Positions 877-10,399 are shown, counted from the first letter of the stretch. The stretch: DNA of 64,000 nucleotides from an uncultured virus (IMG/VR IMGVR_UViG_3300045995_000154) (IMGVR_UViG_3300045995_000154), one strand, 5' to 3'. The notes: a model not told the origin generated them from the letters alone. Numbers and translations are program-made.

Positions 877-1012
877 TGGTGTAGTAATTGGGATTCGAAC
901 CCAACTGGTTTGCCATTTTACGACATAGTAATTACTCCATATCGCTGTATGCCCCTTGGGTGATCAATTCCTACTCACACACAGGCACAAACTTGTCGAC
1001 CAAACTTACCAC
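877..1012 (-). ncRNA. tmRNA-like mini RNA (tRNA-like domain, G3-U70)
   Basis: GUGGUAA/UUACUAC-ACCA acceptor, T-arm UUGGG-UUCGAAU-CCCAA, UGGUCGAC in place of a D arm, no anticodon arm. Confidence 0.55.
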
Positions 1013-2996: not shown

Positions 2997-3174
2997 TTGT
3001 TTTAAGGCTGACGTTTGTGCTTGCGTACAGGATTCGAACCTGCCCATCCGGGTTTAAAGCCCAGTATGCTATCCACTACATCAACGTAATCTCCTTACCA
3101 ACCATACTGCAATACTTATGGACAGGAGTCAAACTTCAGACTGCTTCAAATTGCAGTTATCAGCCTTAAAACAA
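2997..3174 (-). ncRNA. CUGCAA-motif RNA enclosing a tRNA-like domain with UUA anticodon
   Basis: 15-bp terminal helix UUGUUUUAAGGCUGA/UCAGCCUUAAAACAA; internal D, anticodon and T arms; no CCA. Confidence 0.65.
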
Positions 3175-3739: not shown

Positions 3740-4270
3740 CTATTTCTTTGCCCATCGTCGTTTTGCTGACTCGGACATTCTTTTTATTGTTTCCTCTGAT
3801 CTGGGCTTGCATTTGCGGCCCTTCATCGCTTCGGAAACTTTCCTCTTTTGTTCTTCAGATTTTGGTTTCTTAGCACCTCGACGCACTGCTTCACGCAGGG
3901 CCTCGGGGTAATTCTCCAACATTCTTTTCGACTGTTTTGCTTTATGCTCTTCTGATCTTGGTTTTTTAGGAATACCTAAATCATTTACATATCGCCAACC
4001 ACAGCCGCCGCCTAAAACTATGTTATACACATCAGTTCTTTGCAAGAACTCTGCGTTAACATAATGCCTTTCAGCTTCACGCATTGAGGCTTCGTCTTCG
4101 AAGTATTCCAAAATCGTTTTCGAAAAATTCTCTTTACCAGATTTTGCTATTGCTTGTCTGATTATTTTTCCACTGCCCATATAACCATCATTTAAGTTCT
4201 TGGTTTTATGGACGCCGACATAAATCATTCCGTTAGTAGTGTTCTTGATCTCGTACAAATAAAAATGCAT
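3740..4270 (-). CDS. GIY-YIG (Seg-like) homing endonuclease with NUMOD3 repeats
   Basis: YLYEIKN..NGMIYVGVH..YMGSG..YNI; repeated SEExKxKxSE; own TATAAATA promoter and AGGAGG RBS. Confidence 0.9.
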   Translation of the reverse strand: MHFYLYEIKNTTNGMIYVGVHKTKNLNDGYMGSGKIIRQAIAKSGKENFSKTILEYFEDEASMREAERHYVNAEFLQRTDVYNIVLGGGCGWRYVNDLGIPKKPRSEEHKAKQSKRMLENYPEALREAVRRGAKKPKSEEQKRKVSEAMKGRKCKPRSEETIKRMSESAKRRWAKK

Positions 4271-5250: not shown

Positions 5251-5566
5251 TCCTGAAGCTTTCGCCACATCCACAACGATCTCGCTCGTTTGGGTTGTTG
5301 AAGCGGAATCCCTCATTCAATCCTTCACGTACATAGTCCACTTCCATGCCTTGTAAATAGGCACAGCTCTTAGGGTCAACGAACAGTTTGCAGTCCTTGC
5401 ATTCAATGCAAAGGTCTTCTGCTTGCGCTTCGTCTACGTACTCTAGCACGTATGCTAGTCCACTGCAACCTGTTGTCTTAACGCCAAGACGGATACCGGC
5501 ACCTTTACCACGCTTTGCGATAACTTGCTGTATCTTTCTAGCTGCTTTATCAGTCAGTGACAACAT
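5246..5566 (-). CDS. iscA: Iron-sulfur cluster assembly protein IscA
   Basis: GCSGLAY and CGCGESF motifs. Confidence 0.95.
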   Translation of the reverse strand: MLSLTDKAARKIQQVIAKRGKGAGIRLGVKTTGCSGLAYVLEYVDEAQAEDLCIECKDCKLFVDPKSCAYLQGMEVDYVREGLNEGFRFNNPNERDRCGCGESFRI

Positions 5567-5943
5567 GCTTTGCCTTGTAATCTGCAACCGCTGCCTTGAT
5601 AGCATCTTCTGCAAGAATAGAGCAATGGATCTTTACTGGTGGCAGAGCGAGTTCTTCTGCGATTGTACTGTTTTTCAGGGACGCGGCTTCGTCCAGTGTT
5701 TTTCCTTTGACCCATTCTGTCACTAATGATGACGATGCAATGGCTGATCCGCAACCGTAAGTCTTAAATCGTGCATCAGTGATGATGCCGTCTACCACTT
5801 TGATTTGTAGCTTCATTACATCGTCAACAACCGCAAGCTGGGGCACCAACCATCCCGGTCCCAACTTGCGCATCTCCTTTACCGAACGACCCTACGTTCC
5901 TCGGGTTTTCATAATGGTCAATCACAGCATTTGAATAAGCCAT
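5550..5943 (-). pseudogene. iscU: Fe-S scaffold IscU, frameshifted by a 7-nt insertion
   Basis: MAYSNAVIDHYENPRNVG..GAPACG in one frame; DVMKLQI..GCGSAIASSS..LPPVKIHCS in another. Confidence 0.85.
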
Positions 5944-6526
5944 AATAACCTCCTTTTAAAAATCTTATTACGTGCATAGGTTGATAGCTATCCCACTTAG
6001 CACGATTGTCTGCACCCTTGAGGAACTGAATATTTTTCTTGCTCCCCAATACTTCAGCCGGTAGTCCTAATTCATATCCCTGTTTGTAGGGGACGACATG
6101 GTCTACTTGCCAATCTGTTTTTCTTTTACCGCAAGTGGGGACATATTCTCCTGCTTGCTTCATTGCCTTAATCGTTCTATAAGTTGCCTTGCGTACCATT
6201 CCCTTATACACTGCTAACTCACTGTTAGCTGGTTTTTTAGGACGTCGATTATTAACTGCTCCGTCTCTATTGGGGTTATTGGTGAGCCACTTTTGACTCT
6301 GCTTTTCGTTTGGCAAACCCTTGTTCCATCCGTGCCCTTTTTTAAGGCCGTCATGGTTTTGTTTCTCTTTTTGCTCTGCTGTTAGCTTAACCCCTTTGTT
6401 CCAAGCTTTATTACCTGGACGATTAATAGGGTTTTTGCATGGCGCAGAGCAATAAAGCACATACCTGGGTTTAGTTTCAAACAGGTTGCCGCAAAACTTA
6501 CAAACAGACGATATTCCGTATTTCAT
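5918..6526 (-). CDS. HNH homing endonuclease with NUMOD-like repeats
   Basis: WNKG twice, QVDHVVP..NIQFL..DNRAK; start after TAAATA. Confidence 0.75.
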   Translation of the reverse strand: MKYGISSVCKFCGNLFETKPRYVLYCSAPCKNPINRPGNKAWNKGVKLTAEQKEKQNHDGLKKGHGWNKGLPNEKQSQKWLTNNPNRDGAVNNRRPKKPANSELAVYKGMVRKATYRTIKAMKQAGEYVPTCGKRKTDWQVDHVVPYKQGYELGLPAEVLGSKKNIQFLKGADNRAKWDSYQPMHVIRFLKGGYYGLFKCCD

Positions 6527-6819
6527 ACAGTATTTATGTTGGTGCGCCCGTTTGCGAGTTTTTCCTGGCTCTTGTGCATCAAAGCACCGTACTTCAATGT
6601 GAACATGAATGTGTCGTCTGTTGCTACAGTGAACACAGCCCATGCTTTGTTAACTTTTCCCCAGCGGTAGTCTCGTTCACGTTCGTAATTGAACGTGTAA
6701 AAATCCGCATCTAATTCTGTCTCCATTGCCCACATCAAGATATCGTCTACGAATTCTTGGCGGGCATACTTGTGCTCATCCCTGTGAAGGTGGACGGGCA
6801 TTTCGATTCTAACTTTCAT
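6523..6819 (-). CDS. Hypothetical protein
   Basis: ORF with AGGAG RBS. Confidence 0.6.
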   Translation of the reverse strand: MKVRIEMPVHLHRDEHKYARQEFVDDILMWAMETELDADFYTFNYERERDYRWGKVNKAWAVFTVATDDTFMFTLKYGALMHKSQEKLANGRTNINTV

Positions 6820-6889
6820 TTTCGCTCCTTTGTTTTTCAACAATGGGAAGCGGTGAAGTGTGGTAAATAAAACATTTTTGTTTCCTTAT

Positions 6890-7022
6890 TGGTGGAGCAT
6901 TCGGGAGTTGAACCCGTCTCTTGGAACCTTTTGTCACCCTTGCGGGTCTAGCTTGATGATAAATCTCTGCTTGGCTTCTATCAACGTTCAGGATAGATTT
7001 GAGCCGACCTACACTATGCCCC
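6890..7022 (-). ncRNA. tmRNA-like mini RNA (133 nt)
   Basis: GGGGCAU/AUGCUCC-ACCA with G3-U70; GACGGGUUCAACUCCCG T-arm; no D or anticodon arm. Confidence 0.65.
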
Positions 7023-7026
7023 GTAT

Positions 7027-7080
7027 TGGTGGTCGGCCCACAGAGTCATGACCTCTGAATGCGCCCGGGCAATGCCGACC
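7027..7080 (-). ncRNA. 54-nt T-armless tRNA-like RNA with CAU loop
   Basis: Perfect 7-bp acceptor + ACCA; CAGAG-GUCAUGA-CUCUG hairpin. Confidence 0.55.
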
Positions 7081-7086
7081 GTAAAA

Positions 7087-7173
7087 TGGCGGAGAATAAT
7101 GGAATCGAACCATCACCGCTTTCGCAGTGGGGACGCTTTCCAAGCGCCGTAACCCCCAGGGTACCTACTCTCC
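7087..7173 (-). tRNA. tRNA-Ser(GGA)
   Basis: Long variable arm, G73, CCA. Confidence 0.85.
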
Positions 7174-7277
7174 TAAATTTAATAAGCAGACTGAAATAAT
7201 ATGCTGGGTTCTTGCAACCCTTCTTCTGGCTTAGTGTTCCTCATATCATGCCCGTTTCAGTCAGGCTCTGCTTAACT

Positions 7278-7367
7278 TGGCGGGGCGTAATAGAATCGAA
7301 CTATCACCGGGTACTAGCCAGTGGGCGAGTTTTCAAGGCTCGTTAACTTCCAAAGTTCCTACACCCC
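7278..7367 (-). tRNA. tRNA-Ser(UGA)
   Basis: Long variable arm, G73, CCA. Confidence 0.88.
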
Positions 7368-7381
7368 ATATTCATATTTAT

Positions 7382-7468
7382 TGGCGGATCATAATAGAAT
7401 CGAACTATCACCGCTTTCGCAGTGGGTCGGTATTCGAAGCCGATTAACGCCCAGCGTACCTATGATCC
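7382..7468 (-). tRNA. tRNA-Ser(CGA)
   Basis: Long variable arm, G73, CCA. Confidence 0.88.
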
Positions 7469-8664
7469 ATAATCTTTATCTTTTTAAATCCTGCATTAGT
7501 TGGATTCCCTGCTGGCTTTGCATTTTCTGGACATAAGCTGCAAGCAGGAATTTCATATAGCAAGTCATCAATAAACTTTTTAATTTTGGCAATCTCCCAA
7601 TTTGGATTGCCGGGCTCGTAGCTACTAGCTACCGCCATTTGTTCTTTTGTTGCATCAACTGCAAACTGTGCACTAAATTCGCCAAATACTGCAACTGGGC
7701 CGCATTTCCAAAGTCTACCTCTGGCAAATTGATATGCTTGCCACTCAACTGAAGTAAAGCAGCAATTTGAATGTGCTACTCTTCCGTTGCCAGTTTGGAA
7801 TTTAACAGTTTGCCCCACTTGCGTAAGCATAGTGTCATAAAACTTATATGAATCCATTACTAGCAATGATACGCCATTAGCATCAGTGATTTTATATCCA
7901 TCCGAAATTGGTTTTGGTGGTGCAAAATTAAACAATGTAATACATTCGTCTTGAATGTATTGCGGTAAATTTTTAAACTCATCAGGTCTGTTACATGCTG
8001 GCCAATCGTTGGCTTTGATGGAGTTGTATTTTTCAATCCATGCTGTGTTGCTAACTGCTCCCCAGTTTTCATCGAATGAGAATAACTCCTTGCATTCATC
8101 TTGAATGGCTGATGGCAAACTCTTAAAGTCAGACCTAAAATTACATGTTGGCCAATCTGCTAGTTTAATTTGTTTGTATTTTATGTCCCACCGACTACCT
8201 ATTACTTCTGGTGTCAGGGATGCATGTACATCAGCAGCAAAATTTGCGCTGCTCTTTACATACGGTGCAATTAAAAATTGATCTATTCCAGTCTGCGCAT
8301 TTTGCATTACTTCATTGCTGTGTGCAGACATCCTAACTGACAATCTTGGGTTTTTAAGTCGCTCGTACAATTCTGGCCAACGCGAGAACTGTGTACCATT
8401 TGTTAATATTTCTACCTTTGATGTGGGCCATAGACCCATAACGCCGTCTACCCACAACAAAAAATCTGGATTAAGCATAGGCTCACCACCCAAAATTACT
8501 ATGTGTTTAATGTCGACAATGGCCGCCCACTTGGTATACTCGGCTGAATAATCAGCCCAGCGTTCGTGGCCCTTAAACGTAAAATTGTTAAACCTATTAC
8601 AGTCAGTGCAATTCAAATTACATACGTTTGTGATGTAAAAATCTGCAAACTCGATTTCAATCAT
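7444..8664 (-). CDS. Radical SAM protein with internal tandem repeat
   Basis: CNLNCTDC, LGGEP, TNG, C-terminal CSLCP. Confidence 0.9.
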   Translation of the reverse strand: MIEIEFADFYITNVCNLNCTDCNRFNNFTFKGHERWADYSAEYTKWAAIVDIKHIVILGGEPMLNPDFLLWVDGVMGLWPTSKVEILTNGTQFSRWPELYERLKNPRLSVRMSAHSNEVMQNAQTGIDQFLIAPYVKSSANFAADVHASLTPEVIGSRWDIKYKQIKLADWPTCNFRSDFKSLPSAIQDECKELFSFDENWGAVSNTAWIEKYNSIKANDWPACNRPDEFKNLPQYIQDECITLFNFAPPKPISDGYKITDANGVSLLVMDSYKFYDTMLTQVGQTVKFQTGNGRVAHSNCCFTSVEWQAYQFARGRLWKCGPVAVFGEFSAQFAVDATKEQMAVASSYEPGNPNWEIAKIKKFIDDLLYEIPACSLCPENAKPAGNPTNAGFKKIKIMDHRYAGR

Positions 8665-9309
8665 TTATTGATGTTTATATGTTTCTATATATTTTACCAC
8701 ATTGGTATCAAACCATTGTGGGTTTGCATGTAAGTAATCAATTGTTTTACTTAATGTCCACGGTGTTCTATAAGGGCGATTCGACATTAGTGCTTCCGCA
8801 ACGTCACATGCCGCCAATATACGTATATTATGCGGAATTTGTTCCGCTGTCAATTTAAGTGGATAACCCGACCCATCTAATCGCTCATGATGCATATATG
8901 CAAAATCTACTAATGGCCACGGTGATACTAAATTAGATAAAATAATTTTACCAATCGGCACATGCGTTTCCGCAATCATCCGCTCACCAGGAGTAAGTGG
9001 TCCAGCCTTAGAAATAACACTGTGGTGGACACCTATTTTGCCTATATCATGTATCAACGATCCAATTGTGACACCAATCATGTCATGGTATGATAACCCC
9101 ATCTTGGATGCAACATGCGTTGCAATTTCTTCTGCAGAACACAAGTGATCACCTGTATGCGAGTCGTATGCTTGCATCATTGTGACTAGAGTTTCAAAGT
9201 GAGAACATATTGTTTTCACTGTCATCTCATCAGGAGAATTACCCATGCTAGCCATGTAGTGCTGCAAAAACTCTTTACTTGCAAACATGGCTTTAGTATT
9301 AGGGTGCAT
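8665..9309 (-). CDS. HD-GYP cyclic-dinucleotide phosphodiesterase
   Basis: HDIGK, HHERLDGSGYP, CDVAEAL..RPYR; start set at ATG 9309 because the longer version overlaps tRNA-Val. Confidence 0.9.
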   Translation of the reverse strand: MHPNTKAMFASKEFLQHYMASMGNSPDEMTVKTICSHFETLVTMMQAYDSHTGDHLCSAEEIATHVASKMGLSYHDMIGVTIGSLIHDIGKIGVHHSVISKAGPLTPGERMIAETHVPIGKIILSNLVSPWPLVDFAYMHHERLDGSGYPLKLTAEQIPHNIRILAACDVAEALMSNRPYRTPWTLSKTIDYLHANPQWFDTNVVKYIETYKHQ

Positions 9310-9319
9310 ACTATATTTA

Positions 9320-9393
9320 TGGTATCCCGTAGCAGAATTGAACTGCTGTTTTAACCATGTCAAAGTTACGCTCTACCATTGAGCTAACGGGAC
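9320..9393 (-). tRNA. tRNA-Val(GAC)
   Basis: Cloverleaf, CCA. Confidence 0.88.
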
Positions 9394-9995: not shown

Positions 9996-10095
9996 ATATT
10001 CTGTGCTAGTTTACTCCTTACTAGCAAGTCCTATAAGTCGACTCTGCATTTAAGCCTGCAGAGCTTACTATGCCTATAGCGTAGGCTTAAAATAA

Positions 10096-10395
10096 TCAAC
10101 ACTCCGTAGCCGGGATTCTGTTCTATGCTAACATTAATCTTTGCCACAACCCGCACCTATAAGCAAAAGGTTCCCAAGTGCTGTTTGTGTTGCACACTAT
10201 ATCACGGTAGTGTTAACGATAGCATTTTGTGGTGGAGTTTGCCAGGGGCTTTCACCTGGTTGCGGCCTGGAGCGCGAAGGCCCAGTTTCGTCCTATATGT
10301 TACGTGTTCAAACCCCATTACAAAATACTATCTCCTACTCGCCCTTTGCGTGTGTCCCGAACTTCCTGACTTGCGCCCGTTAGCTCGAATGTTGA
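10096..10395 (-). ncRNA. rnpB: Ribonuclease P RNA
   Basis: P1 UCAACAUUC/GAGUGUUGA, P2 GCUAAC/GUUAGC, CR-I AGGAAGUUCGGGA, CR-V AACAGAAUCCCGGCUAC forming P4. Confidence 0.85.
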
Positions 10396-10399
10396 AATT

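What the first reader, a model, noticed from the sequence alone, without database searches (positions are those of the whole stretch)
6890..7022. 133-nt tmRNA-like RNA lacking an mRNA-like domain
The ends match the tmRNA tRNA-like domain: GGGGC start, G3-U70, A73-CCA, GAC before the T-arm, no D stem. It is about a third of normal tmRNA length and I find no tag frame ending in Ala residues. It could sequester SmpB or rescue ribosomes without proteolytic tagging.
Basis: partly seen in the sequence, partly recalled or inferred. Interest (0 to 1): 0.72.

Follow-up and report, generated by a model that had tools for sequence, protein, structure and literature searches.

The report
Miniature tmRNA-like RNA in jumbo phages
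A giant freshwater phage carries a conserved 133-base RNA gene shaped like a shrunken copy of the bacterial ribosome-rescue RNA (tmRNA), with the alanine-accepting end intact but no dependable tag message, and related phages carry the same RNA built into their own RNase P ribozyme gene.

Summary
Window 6890-7022 (minus strand) is a real RNA gene inside a 45-tRNA array of an uncultured jumbo myovirus. I found 11 sequence variants in viral and metagenome contigs. Covariation supports a 7-bp acceptor stem (G3.U70 in 11 of 11, A73, encoded CCA), a T arm, a stemless 12-nt D loop, a helix leaving from the position of tmRNA helix H2a, two hairpins and an inner 3-bp helix. A 23-nt single strand is identical in all 11 copies and lies where tmRNA has its message. 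No reading frame through it ends in a stop in all members, and none ends in Ala-Ala.

The tmRNA reading is only partly supported. The topology is tmRNA-like, but the Rfam tmRNA score (15.9 bits) is lower than that of the phage's own tRNA-Ala genes, and the known TLD-only RNA of phage DS6A scores 43.2. New context: in 6 of 11 variants the RNA is nested in a phage RNase P-like RNA, in two different slots (an earlier scan note led me to test this). Close relatives lack the gene exactly.

Best guess (0.4): an alanine-charged tmRNA mimic that engages SmpB and stalled ribosomes without proteolytic tagging. Charging, SmpB binding and expression are untested. It is a new variant of a known kind.

The parts
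6890..7022 (-). Whole 133-nt tmRNA-like RNA gene (RNA position n = window 7023 - n)
   Evidence: Models R1 and R2 score it 158.5 and 155.9 bits. The Rfam tmRNA model places its ends here. 11 variants exist.
7016..7022 (-). Acceptor stem, 5' strand GGGGCAU (RNA 1-7)
   Evidence: 7 of 7 pairs form in all 11 variants. 3 pairs change on both sides. G3.U70 is present in 11 of 11.
7004..7015 (-). Stemless D-loop-like strand AGUGUAGGUCGG (RNA 8-19)
   Evidence: No partner strand is present. UGU.GG.CG is nearly invariant. It resembles DS6A's GGUGGUCGAC and the Rfam tmRNA consensus GGaUU.CGAC.
7000..7003 (-). Helix P2 (H2a-like), 5' strand CUCA (RNA 20-23)
   Evidence: CUCA/UGAG in most copies, CACA/UGUG in L007 and L042, and CUUCA/UGAAG (one extra pair) in the L001 clade. 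In the window copy A23 faces A102, a mismatch.
6977..6997 (-). Hairpin 1 (RNA 26-46), 6-bp stem with a variable 8-13-nt loop
   Evidence: 6 of 6 pairs change on both sides.
6973..6975 (-). Helix P4, 5' strand GCC (RNA 48-50)
   Evidence: Pairs with GGU at RNA 95-97. GCU/AGU in L042 and L044. 1 of 3 pairs changes on both sides. Support is weak.
6948..6970 (-). Invariant single strand GCAGAGAUUUAUCAUCAAGCUAG (RNA 53-75), at the position of the tmRNA message
   Evidence: The first 18 nt are identical in 11 of 11 and the whole 23 nt in 9 of 11. The 5 copies found by scans that did not require it all carry it.
6936..6947 (-). Hairpin 2 ACCC-GCAA-GGGU (RNA 76-87)
   Evidence: 4 of 4 pairs change on both sides.
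6926..6928 (-). Helix P4, 3' strand GGU (RNA 95-97)
   Evidence: See P4 5' strand.
6918..6921 (-). Helix P2, 3' strand AGAG (RNA 102-105), abutting the T arm
   Evidence: See P2 5' strand.
6901..6917 (-). T arm A-CGGG UUCAACU CCCG-A (RNA 106-122)
   Evidence: 4 Watson-Crick pairs in 11 of 11. One pair changes on both sides (C-G, G-C, U-A). The first pair is A.A, A.G or A-U.
6890..6900 (-). Acceptor 3' strand AUGCUCC, then A73 and the encoded CCA (RNA 123-133)
   Evidence: UCCACCA is invariant in 11 of 11.

Best explanation
This is a working small-RNA gene of a family confined, as far as found, to uncultured freshwater jumbo phages. It is a miniature tmRNA mimic.

Shown here:
- It lies in the phage's co-oriented tRNA array, 4 nt after a 54-nt tRNA-like minihelix.
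- It folds into a 7-bp acceptor stem with the alanine identity set (G3.U70, A73) and an encoded CCA, a T arm and a stemless D loop.
- One helix (P2) leaves from the spot where tmRNA helix H2a leaves.
- P2 carries a hairpin, an invariant 23-nt single strand and a second hairpin, in the order in which tmRNA has PK1, message and H5.

Inferred:
- It is cut out of the array transcript by RNase P (5' end) and by 3' trimming.
- Host AlaRS charges it with alanine.
- Because it has no anticodon arm, host SmpB binds it as it binds the tmRNA tRNA-like domain.
- In infected cells it would then compete with host tmRNA for SmpB, EF-Tu and stalled ribosomes. It would either block tagging or free ribosomes without adding a proteolysis tag, so that phage proteins from broken messages are not destroyed.
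- The invariant strand is the business end of the interior. It is most likely a contact site for SmpB or the ribosome's mRNA channel, and not a reliably terminated template.
For: 1. Family and structure. There are 11 variants. On alignment A6, 95.6% of cells are paired and 16 of 29 pairs change on both sides, against 8.3 +/- 1.7 in shuffles (0 of 500).
2. The revised model R2 scores the three out-of-training divergent members higher than R1 does: 96.5 v 89.9, 79.7 v 67.1 and 94.6 v 93.7 bits.
3. Alanine identity: G3.U70 and UCCACCA are present in 11 of 11, even where pairs 4-7 of the acceptor stem are replaced.
4. tmRNA topology. The D-loop-like strand is followed at once by P2, and P2's 3' strand abuts the T arm. 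This is the layout the Rfam tmRNA model draws for DS6A's TLD-only RNA (GGUGGUCGAC-CGCCG...CGGCG-GCAC-T arm).
5. The review PMC3968760 defines the TLD as acceptor plus CCA, alanine only, a T arm, and a reduced D loop with no stem, with H2 in the place of a long variable arm (passages read).
6. The Rfam tmRNA model is the only clan member reported on the element.
7. Context. Co-oriented tRNAs flank it in 9 of 10 related loci.
8. Precedent. The DS6A TLD-only tmRNA is published, and a similar molecule is reported to inhibit tmRNA, perhaps by titrating SmpB (PMC4131195, PMC11915505; passages read).
9. A second SmpB contact near the tmRNA message is reported in work cited in PMC4174442 (passages read).
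10. No frame through the invariant strand is closed in all members. This argues against an obligatory template.
Against: 1. Nothing shows charging, SmpB binding or expression. Four metatranscriptome runs gave no contig over 6890-7022.
2. The Rfam tmRNA score is low (15.9 bits) and not specific. The phage's tRNA-Ala genes score 28.2 and 23.7 on the same model, and DS6A scores 43.2.
3. The 4-nt GGAC/GCAC linker between H2a and the T arm of tmRNA is missing here (0-1 nt).
4. A pure SmpB decoy needs only the TLD (83 nt in DS6A). It does not explain an 82-nt interior with an invariant strand.
5. In 6 of 11 variants the RNA is embedded in an RNase P-like RNA. The trans-translation reading does not predict this.
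6. Close relatives do without the gene at this locus.
7. No phage SmpB was found (0 of 5 records), and there is no consistent AlaRS (1 of 5) or RF-1/ArfB-type gene (2 of 5).
8. The covariation-supported fold (-24.9 kcal/mol) is not the minimum-energy fold (-34.4).
Confidence: 0.4

Rival explanations
1. It is a working one-piece mini-tmRNA. After alanine transfer the ribosome resumes on the invariant strand (GCA as resume codon, or a neighbouring frame) and adds a short tag that does not signal proteolysis before terminating.
For: The invariant strand starts with GCA. It is single-stranded, lies after a hairpin in the PK1 position, and is followed by a hairpin in the H5 position. The GCA frame ends in a stop in 8 of 11 variants: AEIYHQAWS*, AEIYHQSYDLS*, AEIYHQARLARVTNGA* and others. 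In L044 the stop lies in the loop of hairpin 2. The other two frames close in 10 of 11 each.
Against: No frame closes in all 11. The window copy, L006 and L007 have no stop in the GCA frame, L007 has none in the CAG frame and L044 none in the AGA frame. Most GCA-frame stops are the UGA of helix P2's 3' strand, a structural element. A 1-nt deletion (L006) and compensatory hairpin changes that alter the peptide (P to L or S, V to M) show no coding constraint after residue 7. No tag ends in Ala-Ala. No pseudoknot was found. ARAGORN finds no tmRNA here.
Confidence: 0.15
2. Its function is tied to the phage's own miniature RNase P and not to trans-translation. It could be a built-in or free-standing tRNA-like module of that ribozyme, standing in for the lost specificity domain or regulating it. 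It could also be a favoured nested substrate whose excision splits or matures the ribozyme.
For: In L006, L009 and L011 the element caps a helix of an RNase P-like RNA. An RF00373 match (27.8 bits, E 5e-5) spans L011 266-608 around the element at 345-475. CR-I-like and CR-IV-like motifs lie in the flanks. In L001, L002 and L047 it caps a different helix of the homologous RNA. The window's own RNase P-like RNA (10091-10396, RF00010 28.2 bits, E 4e-7, full model length) holds another alanine-type insert (G3.U70, ACCA) and not an ordinary tRNA in slot A. In the Rfam alignment, slot A falls where the model's specificity-domain helices are skipped. An earlier scan note (e1-5819219) reported the same nesting on other DNA.
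Against: In the window and in L007 the RNA is a separate gene among tRNAs. Close relatives lack it at this locus. No complementarity between the invariant strand and the window's RNase P-like RNA, or anything else in the window, exceeds chance. Nesting may only reflect that hairpin tips tolerate insertions and that tRNA-like genes are shuffled by recombination at their CCACCA ends. The RNase P matches are far below the gathering scores.
Confidence: 0.2
3. It is a tRNA mimic with some other job. Examples are a decoy for a host defence enzyme that attacks acceptor ends or aminoacyl-tRNA, a donor of activated alanine outside the ribosome, or a platform whose invariant strand binds a phage or host protein.
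For: Large phage tRNA arrays are often read as counter-measures to tRNA-targeting defences (general knowledge, not tested here). The strand's invariance at the nucleotide level, with no consistent frame, fits a protein- or RNA-binding site. The same phages carry several other short acceptor/T-arm RNAs of 51-68 nt, a 54-nt minihelix and a 136-nt alanine-type RNA. This suggests a wider repertoire of tRNA look-alikes.
Against: There is no anticodon loop, so it cannot decoy anticodon nucleases. No conserved neighbouring protein gene was found; the flanks differ between phages. No Ro60/TROVE partner (0 of 5) and no YrlA match, so it is not a Y RNA.
Confidence: 0.15
4. It is a decaying tRNA-Ala or tmRNA remnant, or a selfish cassette with no function for the phage.
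For: The gene is present or absent between close relatives. The indel is bounded by CCACCAAT repeats. The gene occupies several unrelated insertion sites.
Against: Compensatory changes occur in five helices, and a 23-nt block stays invariant across phages whose flanks no longer align. Both show purifying selection on the RNA.
Confidence: 0.07

Closest known systems
tmRNA (ssrA; Rfam RF00023)
   Same: Alanine-type acceptor stem with G3.U70, A73 and CCA. T arm. Reduced D loop with no stem and a GG..CG(A/G)C motif. One helix emerges next to the T arm. A single-stranded stretch starting with GCA lies between two structured elements.
   Different: 133 nt against about 363. No pseudoknots were found. 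No stop-terminated frame is conserved, and no tag ends in Ala-Ala. No GGAC linker precedes the T arm. 15.9 bits against a gathering score of 47. ARAGORN does not call it.
TLD-only (CDS-less) tmRNA of Mycobacterium phage DS6A (JN698994.1 28478-28560; PMC4131195, PMC11915505)
   Same: Phage-borne, alanine-type and without an anticodon. The D loop GGUGGUCGAC is followed at once by H2a. It has no conventional tag.
   Different: DS6A is 83 nt, with only a 20-nt cap on H2a. It scores 43.2 bits on RF00023 and ends CUCCACUA in the DNA. The window RNA has an 82-nt structured interior with an invariant strand and an encoded CCA, lies in a tRNA array, and has relatives nested in an RNase P-like RNA.
CDS-less organellar tmRNAs (jakobid mitochondria; ~65-bp forms of Mallomonadaceae plastids; PMC11915505, passage read)
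   Same: tmRNA derivatives that keep the tRNA-like domain and lack a tag frame.
   Different: They are organellar, are paired with a dedicated SmpB, and have little or no interior domain. I made no sequence comparison here.
tRNA-Ala
   Same: Acceptor stem identity elements, T arm, encoded CCA, and a place in a tRNA array.
   Different: No D stem and no anticodon arm. Neither ARAGORN nor the Rfam tRNA model reports it.
Stable RNAs 'species 1 and 2' (rnaC, rnaD) of the phage T4 tRNA cluster (recalled, not checked in any call)
   Same: Small stable RNAs of unknown function encoded among phage tRNA genes.
   Different: I made no sequence or structure comparison. This is a lead only.

Membership tests
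tmRNA (RF00023) | Acceptor stem with G3.U70, discriminator A73 and 3' CCA (alanine identity) | tested here: met
   G3.U70 and UCCACCA are present in 11 of 11 variants.
tmRNA (RF00023) | tRNA-like T arm with a 7-nt UUCRANU loop abutting the acceptor 3' strand | tested here: met
   GGGUUC.A.UCCC is invariant. One T-stem pair covaries.
tmRNA (RF00023) | Reduced D loop without a stem, no anticodon arm | tested here: met
   A 12-nt unpaired strand lies between the acceptor stem and P2. There is no 7-nt anticodon-type loop; the loop of hairpin 1 is 8-13 nt and variable.
tmRNA (RF00023) | Helix H2a formed by the sequence right after the D loop and the sequence right before the T arm | tested here: met
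   P2 has 4-5 bp. One pair changes U-A to A-U in 2 variants, and a whole pair is inserted in 3 variants. Support rests on few events. The alignment was fitted to the structure.
tmRNA (RF00023) | Conserved GGAC-type linker between H2a and the T arm | tested here: not met
   Only 0-1 nt (an invariant A) separates P2 from the T stem. DS6A has GCAC there.
tmRNA (RF00023) | mRNA-like domain: a resume codon and an in-frame stop, conserved across the family, with a hydrophobic or Ala-rich tag end | tested here: not met
   Stops are present in 8, 10 and 10 of 11 variants for the three frames. No frame closes in all members. The window copy has none in the GCA frame. No tag ends in Ala-Ala.
tmRNA (RF00023) | Pseudoknot PK1 upstream of the resume codon | tested here: inconclusive
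   A simple hairpin is in that position. My pair scan of 11 sequences found no supported loop pairing, but the sample is too small to exclude one.
tmRNA (RF00023) | Score at or above the curated Rfam gathering score; detection by ARAGORN | tested here: not met
   15.9 bits against 47. Ordinary tRNA-Ala genes score higher on the same model. ARAGORN makes no call in the window, and its 'tmRNA' in L045 is a chimera with a tRNA-Tyr 5' end.
tmRNA (RF00023) | Alanylation by AlaRS, binding by SmpB, entry into stalled ribosomes | not testable with these tools
   These need biochemical assays.
Phage TLD-only tmRNA (DS6A type) | Little more than the TLD: acceptor stem, D loop, short capped H2a, T arm | tested here: not met
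   DS6A is 83 nt with a 20-nt cap. Here H2a carries 78 nt, with three further helices and an invariant strand.
Canonical tRNA (RF00005) | Cloverleaf with D arm and anticodon arm | tested here: not met
   No ARAGORN or Rfam tRNA call at any threshold used. The covariation-supported fold has neither arm.
Bacterial Y RNA (YrlA, RF02553) | tRNA-like module inside an RNA whose ends form a Ro60-binding stem; a Ro60 (TROVE) gene nearby | tested here: not met
   No YrlA match on the element at E up to 10. TROVE was found in 0 of 5 related virus records. Here the RNA ends form the acceptor stem itself.

The most novel reading that the evidence does not exclude
The alanine-type, anticodon-less RNA is an exchangeable module of a phage-encoded miniature RNase P. 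In some phages it is physically built into the ribozyme where the specificity domain used to be. In others, including this window, it is a free RNA, while the ribozyme carries a different alanine-type insert. The tRNA look-alike would then act as a subunit or regulator of the tRNA-maturing enzyme, or as a self-excised piece that turns it into a two-piece ribozyme. The invariant 23-nt strand would be its functional contact.
Probability: 0.15. Interest if true: 0.85.

Novelty: new variant of a known kind. Interest (0 to 1): 0.62.

Why it matters
Phage tmRNA look-alikes without a tag are known from one studied case (DS6A), which is little more than the tRNA-like domain. This family is different. 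It keeps a structured interior and a 23-nt strand that has not changed in any copy found, so something reads that strand.

If it engages SmpB and stalled ribosomes, it would be the smallest tmRNA-type RNA with a message-like element. It would also be a handle on how giant phages take over host translation quality control.

Its repeated nesting in a phage RNase P-like RNA, at two different sites, is unexplained. It links two tRNA-related RNAs in a way I did not find described in the papers searched.

The family is missed by ARAGORN and by Rfam at curated thresholds, so similar genes go unannotated in phage genomes.

Tried and rejected
1. Expression. Four metatranscriptome runs (X11, X15, X23, X24) were laid on 6500-7500. 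Contigs cover the 54-nt minihelix and tRNA-Ser, but none covers 6890-7022. These are contigs, so this says nothing either way about expression.
2. My first structure (R1). Its helices GUC/GAC (15-17/88-90) and GGCU/AGCC (18-21/47-50) showed no covariation. I replaced them with P2 and P4.
3. RNAalifold on the MAFFT alignment proposed a long-range helix 10-21/72-84. It competes with hairpin 2, which covaries at 4 of 4 pairs, and it has no double-sided change of its own. Rejected.
4. Antisense target. The longest complement of the invariant strand elsewhere in the window is 11 nt, at chance level.
5. Bacterial origin. The core-plus-T-loop pattern gave 10 loci in 185,579 species genomes and none is the element. 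The pattern would not match a normal tmRNA, where the message lies far from the T arm, so ancestry stays open.
6. More members. A 17-nt core scan gave 25 viral loci. The 18 that came from new contigs had 0 matches to R2.
7. Isolated phages. blastn against 50,697 phage records matched only the neighbouring tRNA-Ser.
8. Co-occurring proteins in 5 related virus records: SmpB 0 of 5, RF-1 domain 2 of 5, AlaRS 1 of 5, a 300-aa fragment, TROVE 0 of 5. Four of the five records are fragments.
9. RF00010 over the same five records returned nothing. That includes G005, which contains the window's weak RNase P-like match, so that search is uninformative.
10. My pattern for the 136-nt second RNA was one base off and found nothing, not even the twin contig. 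Nothing was learned from it.
11. The papers PMC11662646 and PMC10865867 (passages read) turned out not to bear on this RNA.

Full report
WHAT IS THERE

The window is part of an uncultured jumbo myovirus. Its tail sheath protein is about 40% identical to those of Pseudomonas phage PA5oct, Agrobacterium phage Atu_ph07 and Pectobacterium phage CBB. The first 14.4 kb hold 45 ARAGORN tRNA calls, all but one in a minus-strand array.

The finding lies in that array. On the minus strand the order is:
- tRNA-Ser(GGA), 7173-7087
- a 6-nt spacer
- a 54-nt minihelix, 7080-7027
- a 4-nt spacer
- the 133-nt element, 7022-6890
- 70 nt further on, an ORF with a good ribosome-binding site.

ARAGORN and Rfam at curated thresholds call nothing at 6890-7022. 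With permissive thresholds the Rfam tmRNA model aligns its two ends to exactly these coordinates. The score is 15.9 bits against a gathering score of 47, with 94 nt where the model has 326.

The listed 'GAC before the T arm' is present, but it is made of the last base of one helix, an invariant A and the first Watson-Crick base of the T stem. It reads GAC in only 7 of 11 family members.

The window copy has no frame ending in alanines.

IT IS A CONSERVED GENE FAMILY

Pattern scans gave the following:
- viral contigs:
- metagenome contigs: where 10 of 23 loci are real
- one genome for each of 185,579 prokaryote species: where 0 of 10 loci are real.

Together they gave 11 distinct sequence variants of 128-135 nt. 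These come from 7 viral contigs and 5 further metagenome contigs. One viral contig is identical to the window.

Two scans did not require the central motif. They recovered only copies that have it: 5 real loci each. The other hits were adjacent tRNA pairs.

Flanks are not alignable between clades, while the element is. In 9 of 10 related loci it lies among co-oriented tRNA genes. There is one copy per record in the four related virus records that hold it, one of them 100% complete.

STRUCTURE

MAFFT plus RNAalifold found only the acceptor stem, the T arm and a dubious long-range helix. I therefore built covariance models from five well-aligned copies with hand-derived structures and used them to realign all 11.

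My first model (R1) had two helices with no covariation. A scan of column pairs pointed to a different pairing, and the revised model R2 is better in two ways:
- 95.6% of cells are paired and 16 of 29 pairs change on both sides. Shuffles give 8.3 +/- 1.7 (0 of 500 as high), and slid registers give 2-7.
- The three divergent members not used for training score higher than under R1: L007 96.5 v 89.9, L042 79.7 v 67.1, L044 94.6 v 93.7 bits.

The alignment is fitted to the model, which favours the structure. The numbers should be read with that in mind.

The supported parts are, in RNA positions:
- Acceptor stem 1-7/123-129. Three pairs are replaced, and G3.U70 is kept in 11 of 11.
- A stemless strand, 8-19.
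- Helix P2, 20-23/102-105. It reads CUCA/UGAG in most copies, CACA/UGUG in two variants, and CUUCA/UGAAG, with a whole extra pair, in three.
- Hairpin 1, 26-46. All 6 pairs covary.
- A 3-bp helix P4, 48-50/95-97. Support is weak, with one covarying pair.
- A single strand, 53-75.
- Hairpin 2, 76-87. All 4 pairs covary.
- T arm, 106-122.

This fold (-24.9 kcal/mol) is not the thermodynamic optimum (-34.4). The single-sequence fold is also not unusually stable (z -0.77). The case therefore rests on comparative evidence.

HOW tmRNA-LIKE IS IT?

The topology is that of tmRNA. There is an alanine acceptor stem, a T arm and a reduced D loop. One helix leaves between the D loop and the T arm, where tmRNA has H2, which mimics a long variable arm (definition from PMC3968760, passages read).

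I fetched the published phage 'TLD-only' tmRNA of mycobacteriophage DS6A. The accession was recalled and the coordinates came from an earlier scan note; Rfam confirmed the locus. Its D loop GGUGGUCGAC runs straight into H2a. The family's GUAGGUCG(G/A)C runs straight into P2 in the same way.

The interior also follows the tmRNA order: a hairpin where PK1 is, a single strand starting with GCA where the message is, then a hairpin where H5 is.

Three results weaken family membership:
- The Rfam hit is weak and not specific. In related virus records the same model scores ordinary tRNAs, and this phage's two tRNA-Ala genes get 28.2 and 23.7 bits. DS6A gets 43.2.
- The GGAC-type linker before the T arm is absent.
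- There is no conserved tag frame. The GCA frame closes in 8 of 11 variants, and not in the window copy. The other two frames close in 10 of 11 each, failing in different members.

Most GCA-frame stops are the UGA of P2's 3' strand. A 1-nt deletion in L006 and peptide-changing compensatory substitutions in hairpin 2 show that nothing after the seventh codon is constrained as coding.

So 'works like a tmRNA tRNA-like domain' is plausible. 'Is a tmRNA' fails defining tests.

THE INVARIANT STRAND

GCAGAGAUUUAUCAUCAA is identical in 11 of 11 variants. The full 23 nt is identical in 9 of 11, although every surrounding helix has changed.

It has no complement in the window beyond chance. No Rfam ribozyme or other family matches it.

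Work cited in PMC4174442 (passages read) reports a second SmpB contact near the tmRNA message. This suggests, by inference only, that the strand could strengthen SmpB or ribosome binding.

A LINK WITH RNase P

I tested this on my own loci.
- In L011, from the complete 364-kb phage, an RNase P match (RF00373, 27.8 bits, E 5e-5, full model) spans 266-608 around the element at 345-475.
- In L006, L009 and L011 the flanks carry CR-I-like (AGAGGAAGUUCGGGAC) and CR-IV-like (ACAGAAUCCCGGCU) motifs. The element caps a perfect 8-bp host helix.
- In L001, L002 and L047 it caps a different helix of the homologous RNA. The host block that lies 3' of the element in L011 lies 5' of it in L002.

The window has its own RNase P-like RNA at 10091-10396 on the minus strand (RF00010, 28.2 bits, E 4e-7, full model length). 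The flanks are nearly identical to those of L011, L009 and L006. In the same slot it holds a different 87-nt insert (10316-10230), again with G3.U70 and ACCA.

In summary, 6 of 11 variants are nested, 2 are free-standing (the window and L007) and 3 are unresolved. All the RNase P matches are far below gathering scores. Whether these RNAs are active ribozymes is not shown.

PRESENCE AND ABSENCE

A DNA viral contig (L090) is syntenic with the window from tRNA-Ser through the minihelix to the downstream gene, but it lacks the 133-nt gene. The indel is bounded by the CCACCAAT ends of the two neighbouring genes. A contig from an RNA library (run X11, 90-95% identical) shows the same empty junction.

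The gene therefore behaves as a cassette whose borders coincide with the predicted RNA ends. It is not essential at this locus.

WHAT IT MOST LIKELY DOES

I put 0.4 on a tmRNA mimic that is matured like a tRNA, charged by AlaRS and bound by SmpB. It would then compete with host tmRNA or rescue ribosomes without a degradation tag.

The other readings:
- 0.15 on a templating mini-tmRNA
- 0.2 on a function tied to the phage RNase P-like RNA
- 0.15 on another tRNA-mimic role
- 0.07 on no function.

The gene family, the fold and the identity elements are shown. Processing, charging, SmpB binding and the effect on the host are inferred. Co-occurrence searches give no help: SmpB 0 of 5, AlaRS 1 of 5, RF-1 domain 2 of 5, TROVE 0 of 5.

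NOVELTY

Tag-less tmRNA derivatives are known from DS6A, jakobid mitochondria and ~65-bp plastid forms (PMC4131195, PMC11915505; passages read). Earlier notes of this scan describe several short phage examples and one 119-nt one on other DNA (not checked by me).

This family differs by its structured interior, its invariant strand and its nesting in RNase P-like RNAs. Five literature searches listed no paper describing it. The library lacks most subscription journals, and I saw no supplements.

I rate it a new variant of a known kind, with interest 0.62.

Noticed in passing
window 10091-10396 (-): A phage-encoded miniature RNase P-like RNA sits inside the tRNA array. It matches RF00010 at 28.2 bits (gathering score 100), E 4e-7, over the full model length. 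It has an exact CR-IV motif, a CR-I motif with one mismatch and an AGAUUAAUG CR-V-like stretch. The specificity-domain helices are skipped in the Rfam alignment.
   Followed up: partly
window 10230-10316 (-): An 87-nt insert, GGGGUUUG...CAAACUCC-ACCA, with G3.U70. It caps a 12-bp helix of the RNase P-like RNA, in the same slot where L006, L009 and L011 hold the 131-133-nt family. It has a 5-bp stem next to the acceptor stem, but not a canonical T loop.
   Followed up: partly
window 877-1012 (-): A second long tRNA-like RNA (136 nt) lies between tRNA-Tyr and tRNA-Cys. It has a 7-bp acceptor stem with G3.U70, A73-CCA, a canonical T arm, a UUGGUCGAC D-loop-like motif and a GUUUG/CAAAC helix near the T arm. 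Its interior is unrelated and lacks the invariant strand. Neither ARAGORN nor Rfam calls it. My scan for relatives was mis-specified.
   Followed up: partly
window 7027-7080 (-): A 54-nt minihelix, GGUCGGC...GCCGACC-ACCA, with an anticodon-like stem-loop (loop GUCAUGA, CAU in the middle) and no T arm. It is conserved in a second viral contig (L090) and is present, with 0-1 differences, in contigs of three metatranscriptome libraries. It looks like a T-armless tRNA.
   Followed up: partly
G005:30417-30467, G003:169830-169883, G002:30558-30625, G004:99058-99254: Related jumbo-phage records hold further short acceptor/T-arm RNAs of 51-68 nt ending in UCCACCA. G004 has a strongly tmRNA-like 3' half (GGAC-GCGGGUUCGACUCCCGC-CAGGUCC-ACCA) directly after a 186-aa RF-1-domain (GGQ release-factor or ArfB-type) ORF.
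   Followed up: partly
window 3017-3091 (-): ARAGORN calls a tRNA with anticodon UUA, an ochre (UAA) suppressor type. The Rfam tRNA model scores it 45.7 bits. Long ORFs are open under table 11, so a recoded genome is not indicated.
   Followed up: no
window 3740-4270 (-), 5550-5873 (-), 7444-8664 (-), 8665-9363 (-): Protein genes lie interspersed in the tRNA array: a GIY-YIG (SegE-like) endonuclease, a NifU-like protein, a radical SAM protein and an HD-domain protein.
   Followed up: no
L045 39-475: ARAGORN reports a 437-nt 'tmRNA' with a 24-residue tag. It is a chimera of the 5' end of a tRNA-Tyr and the 3' half of the 131-nt element. This is an annotation trap for this family.
   Followed up: yes
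G004:111823-112437 (-): A 300-aa ORF matches the N-terminal catalytic part of alanyl-tRNA synthetase (PF01411, 43 bits). It lies in the phage that holds variant L007. None of the other four records has one.
   Followed up: no
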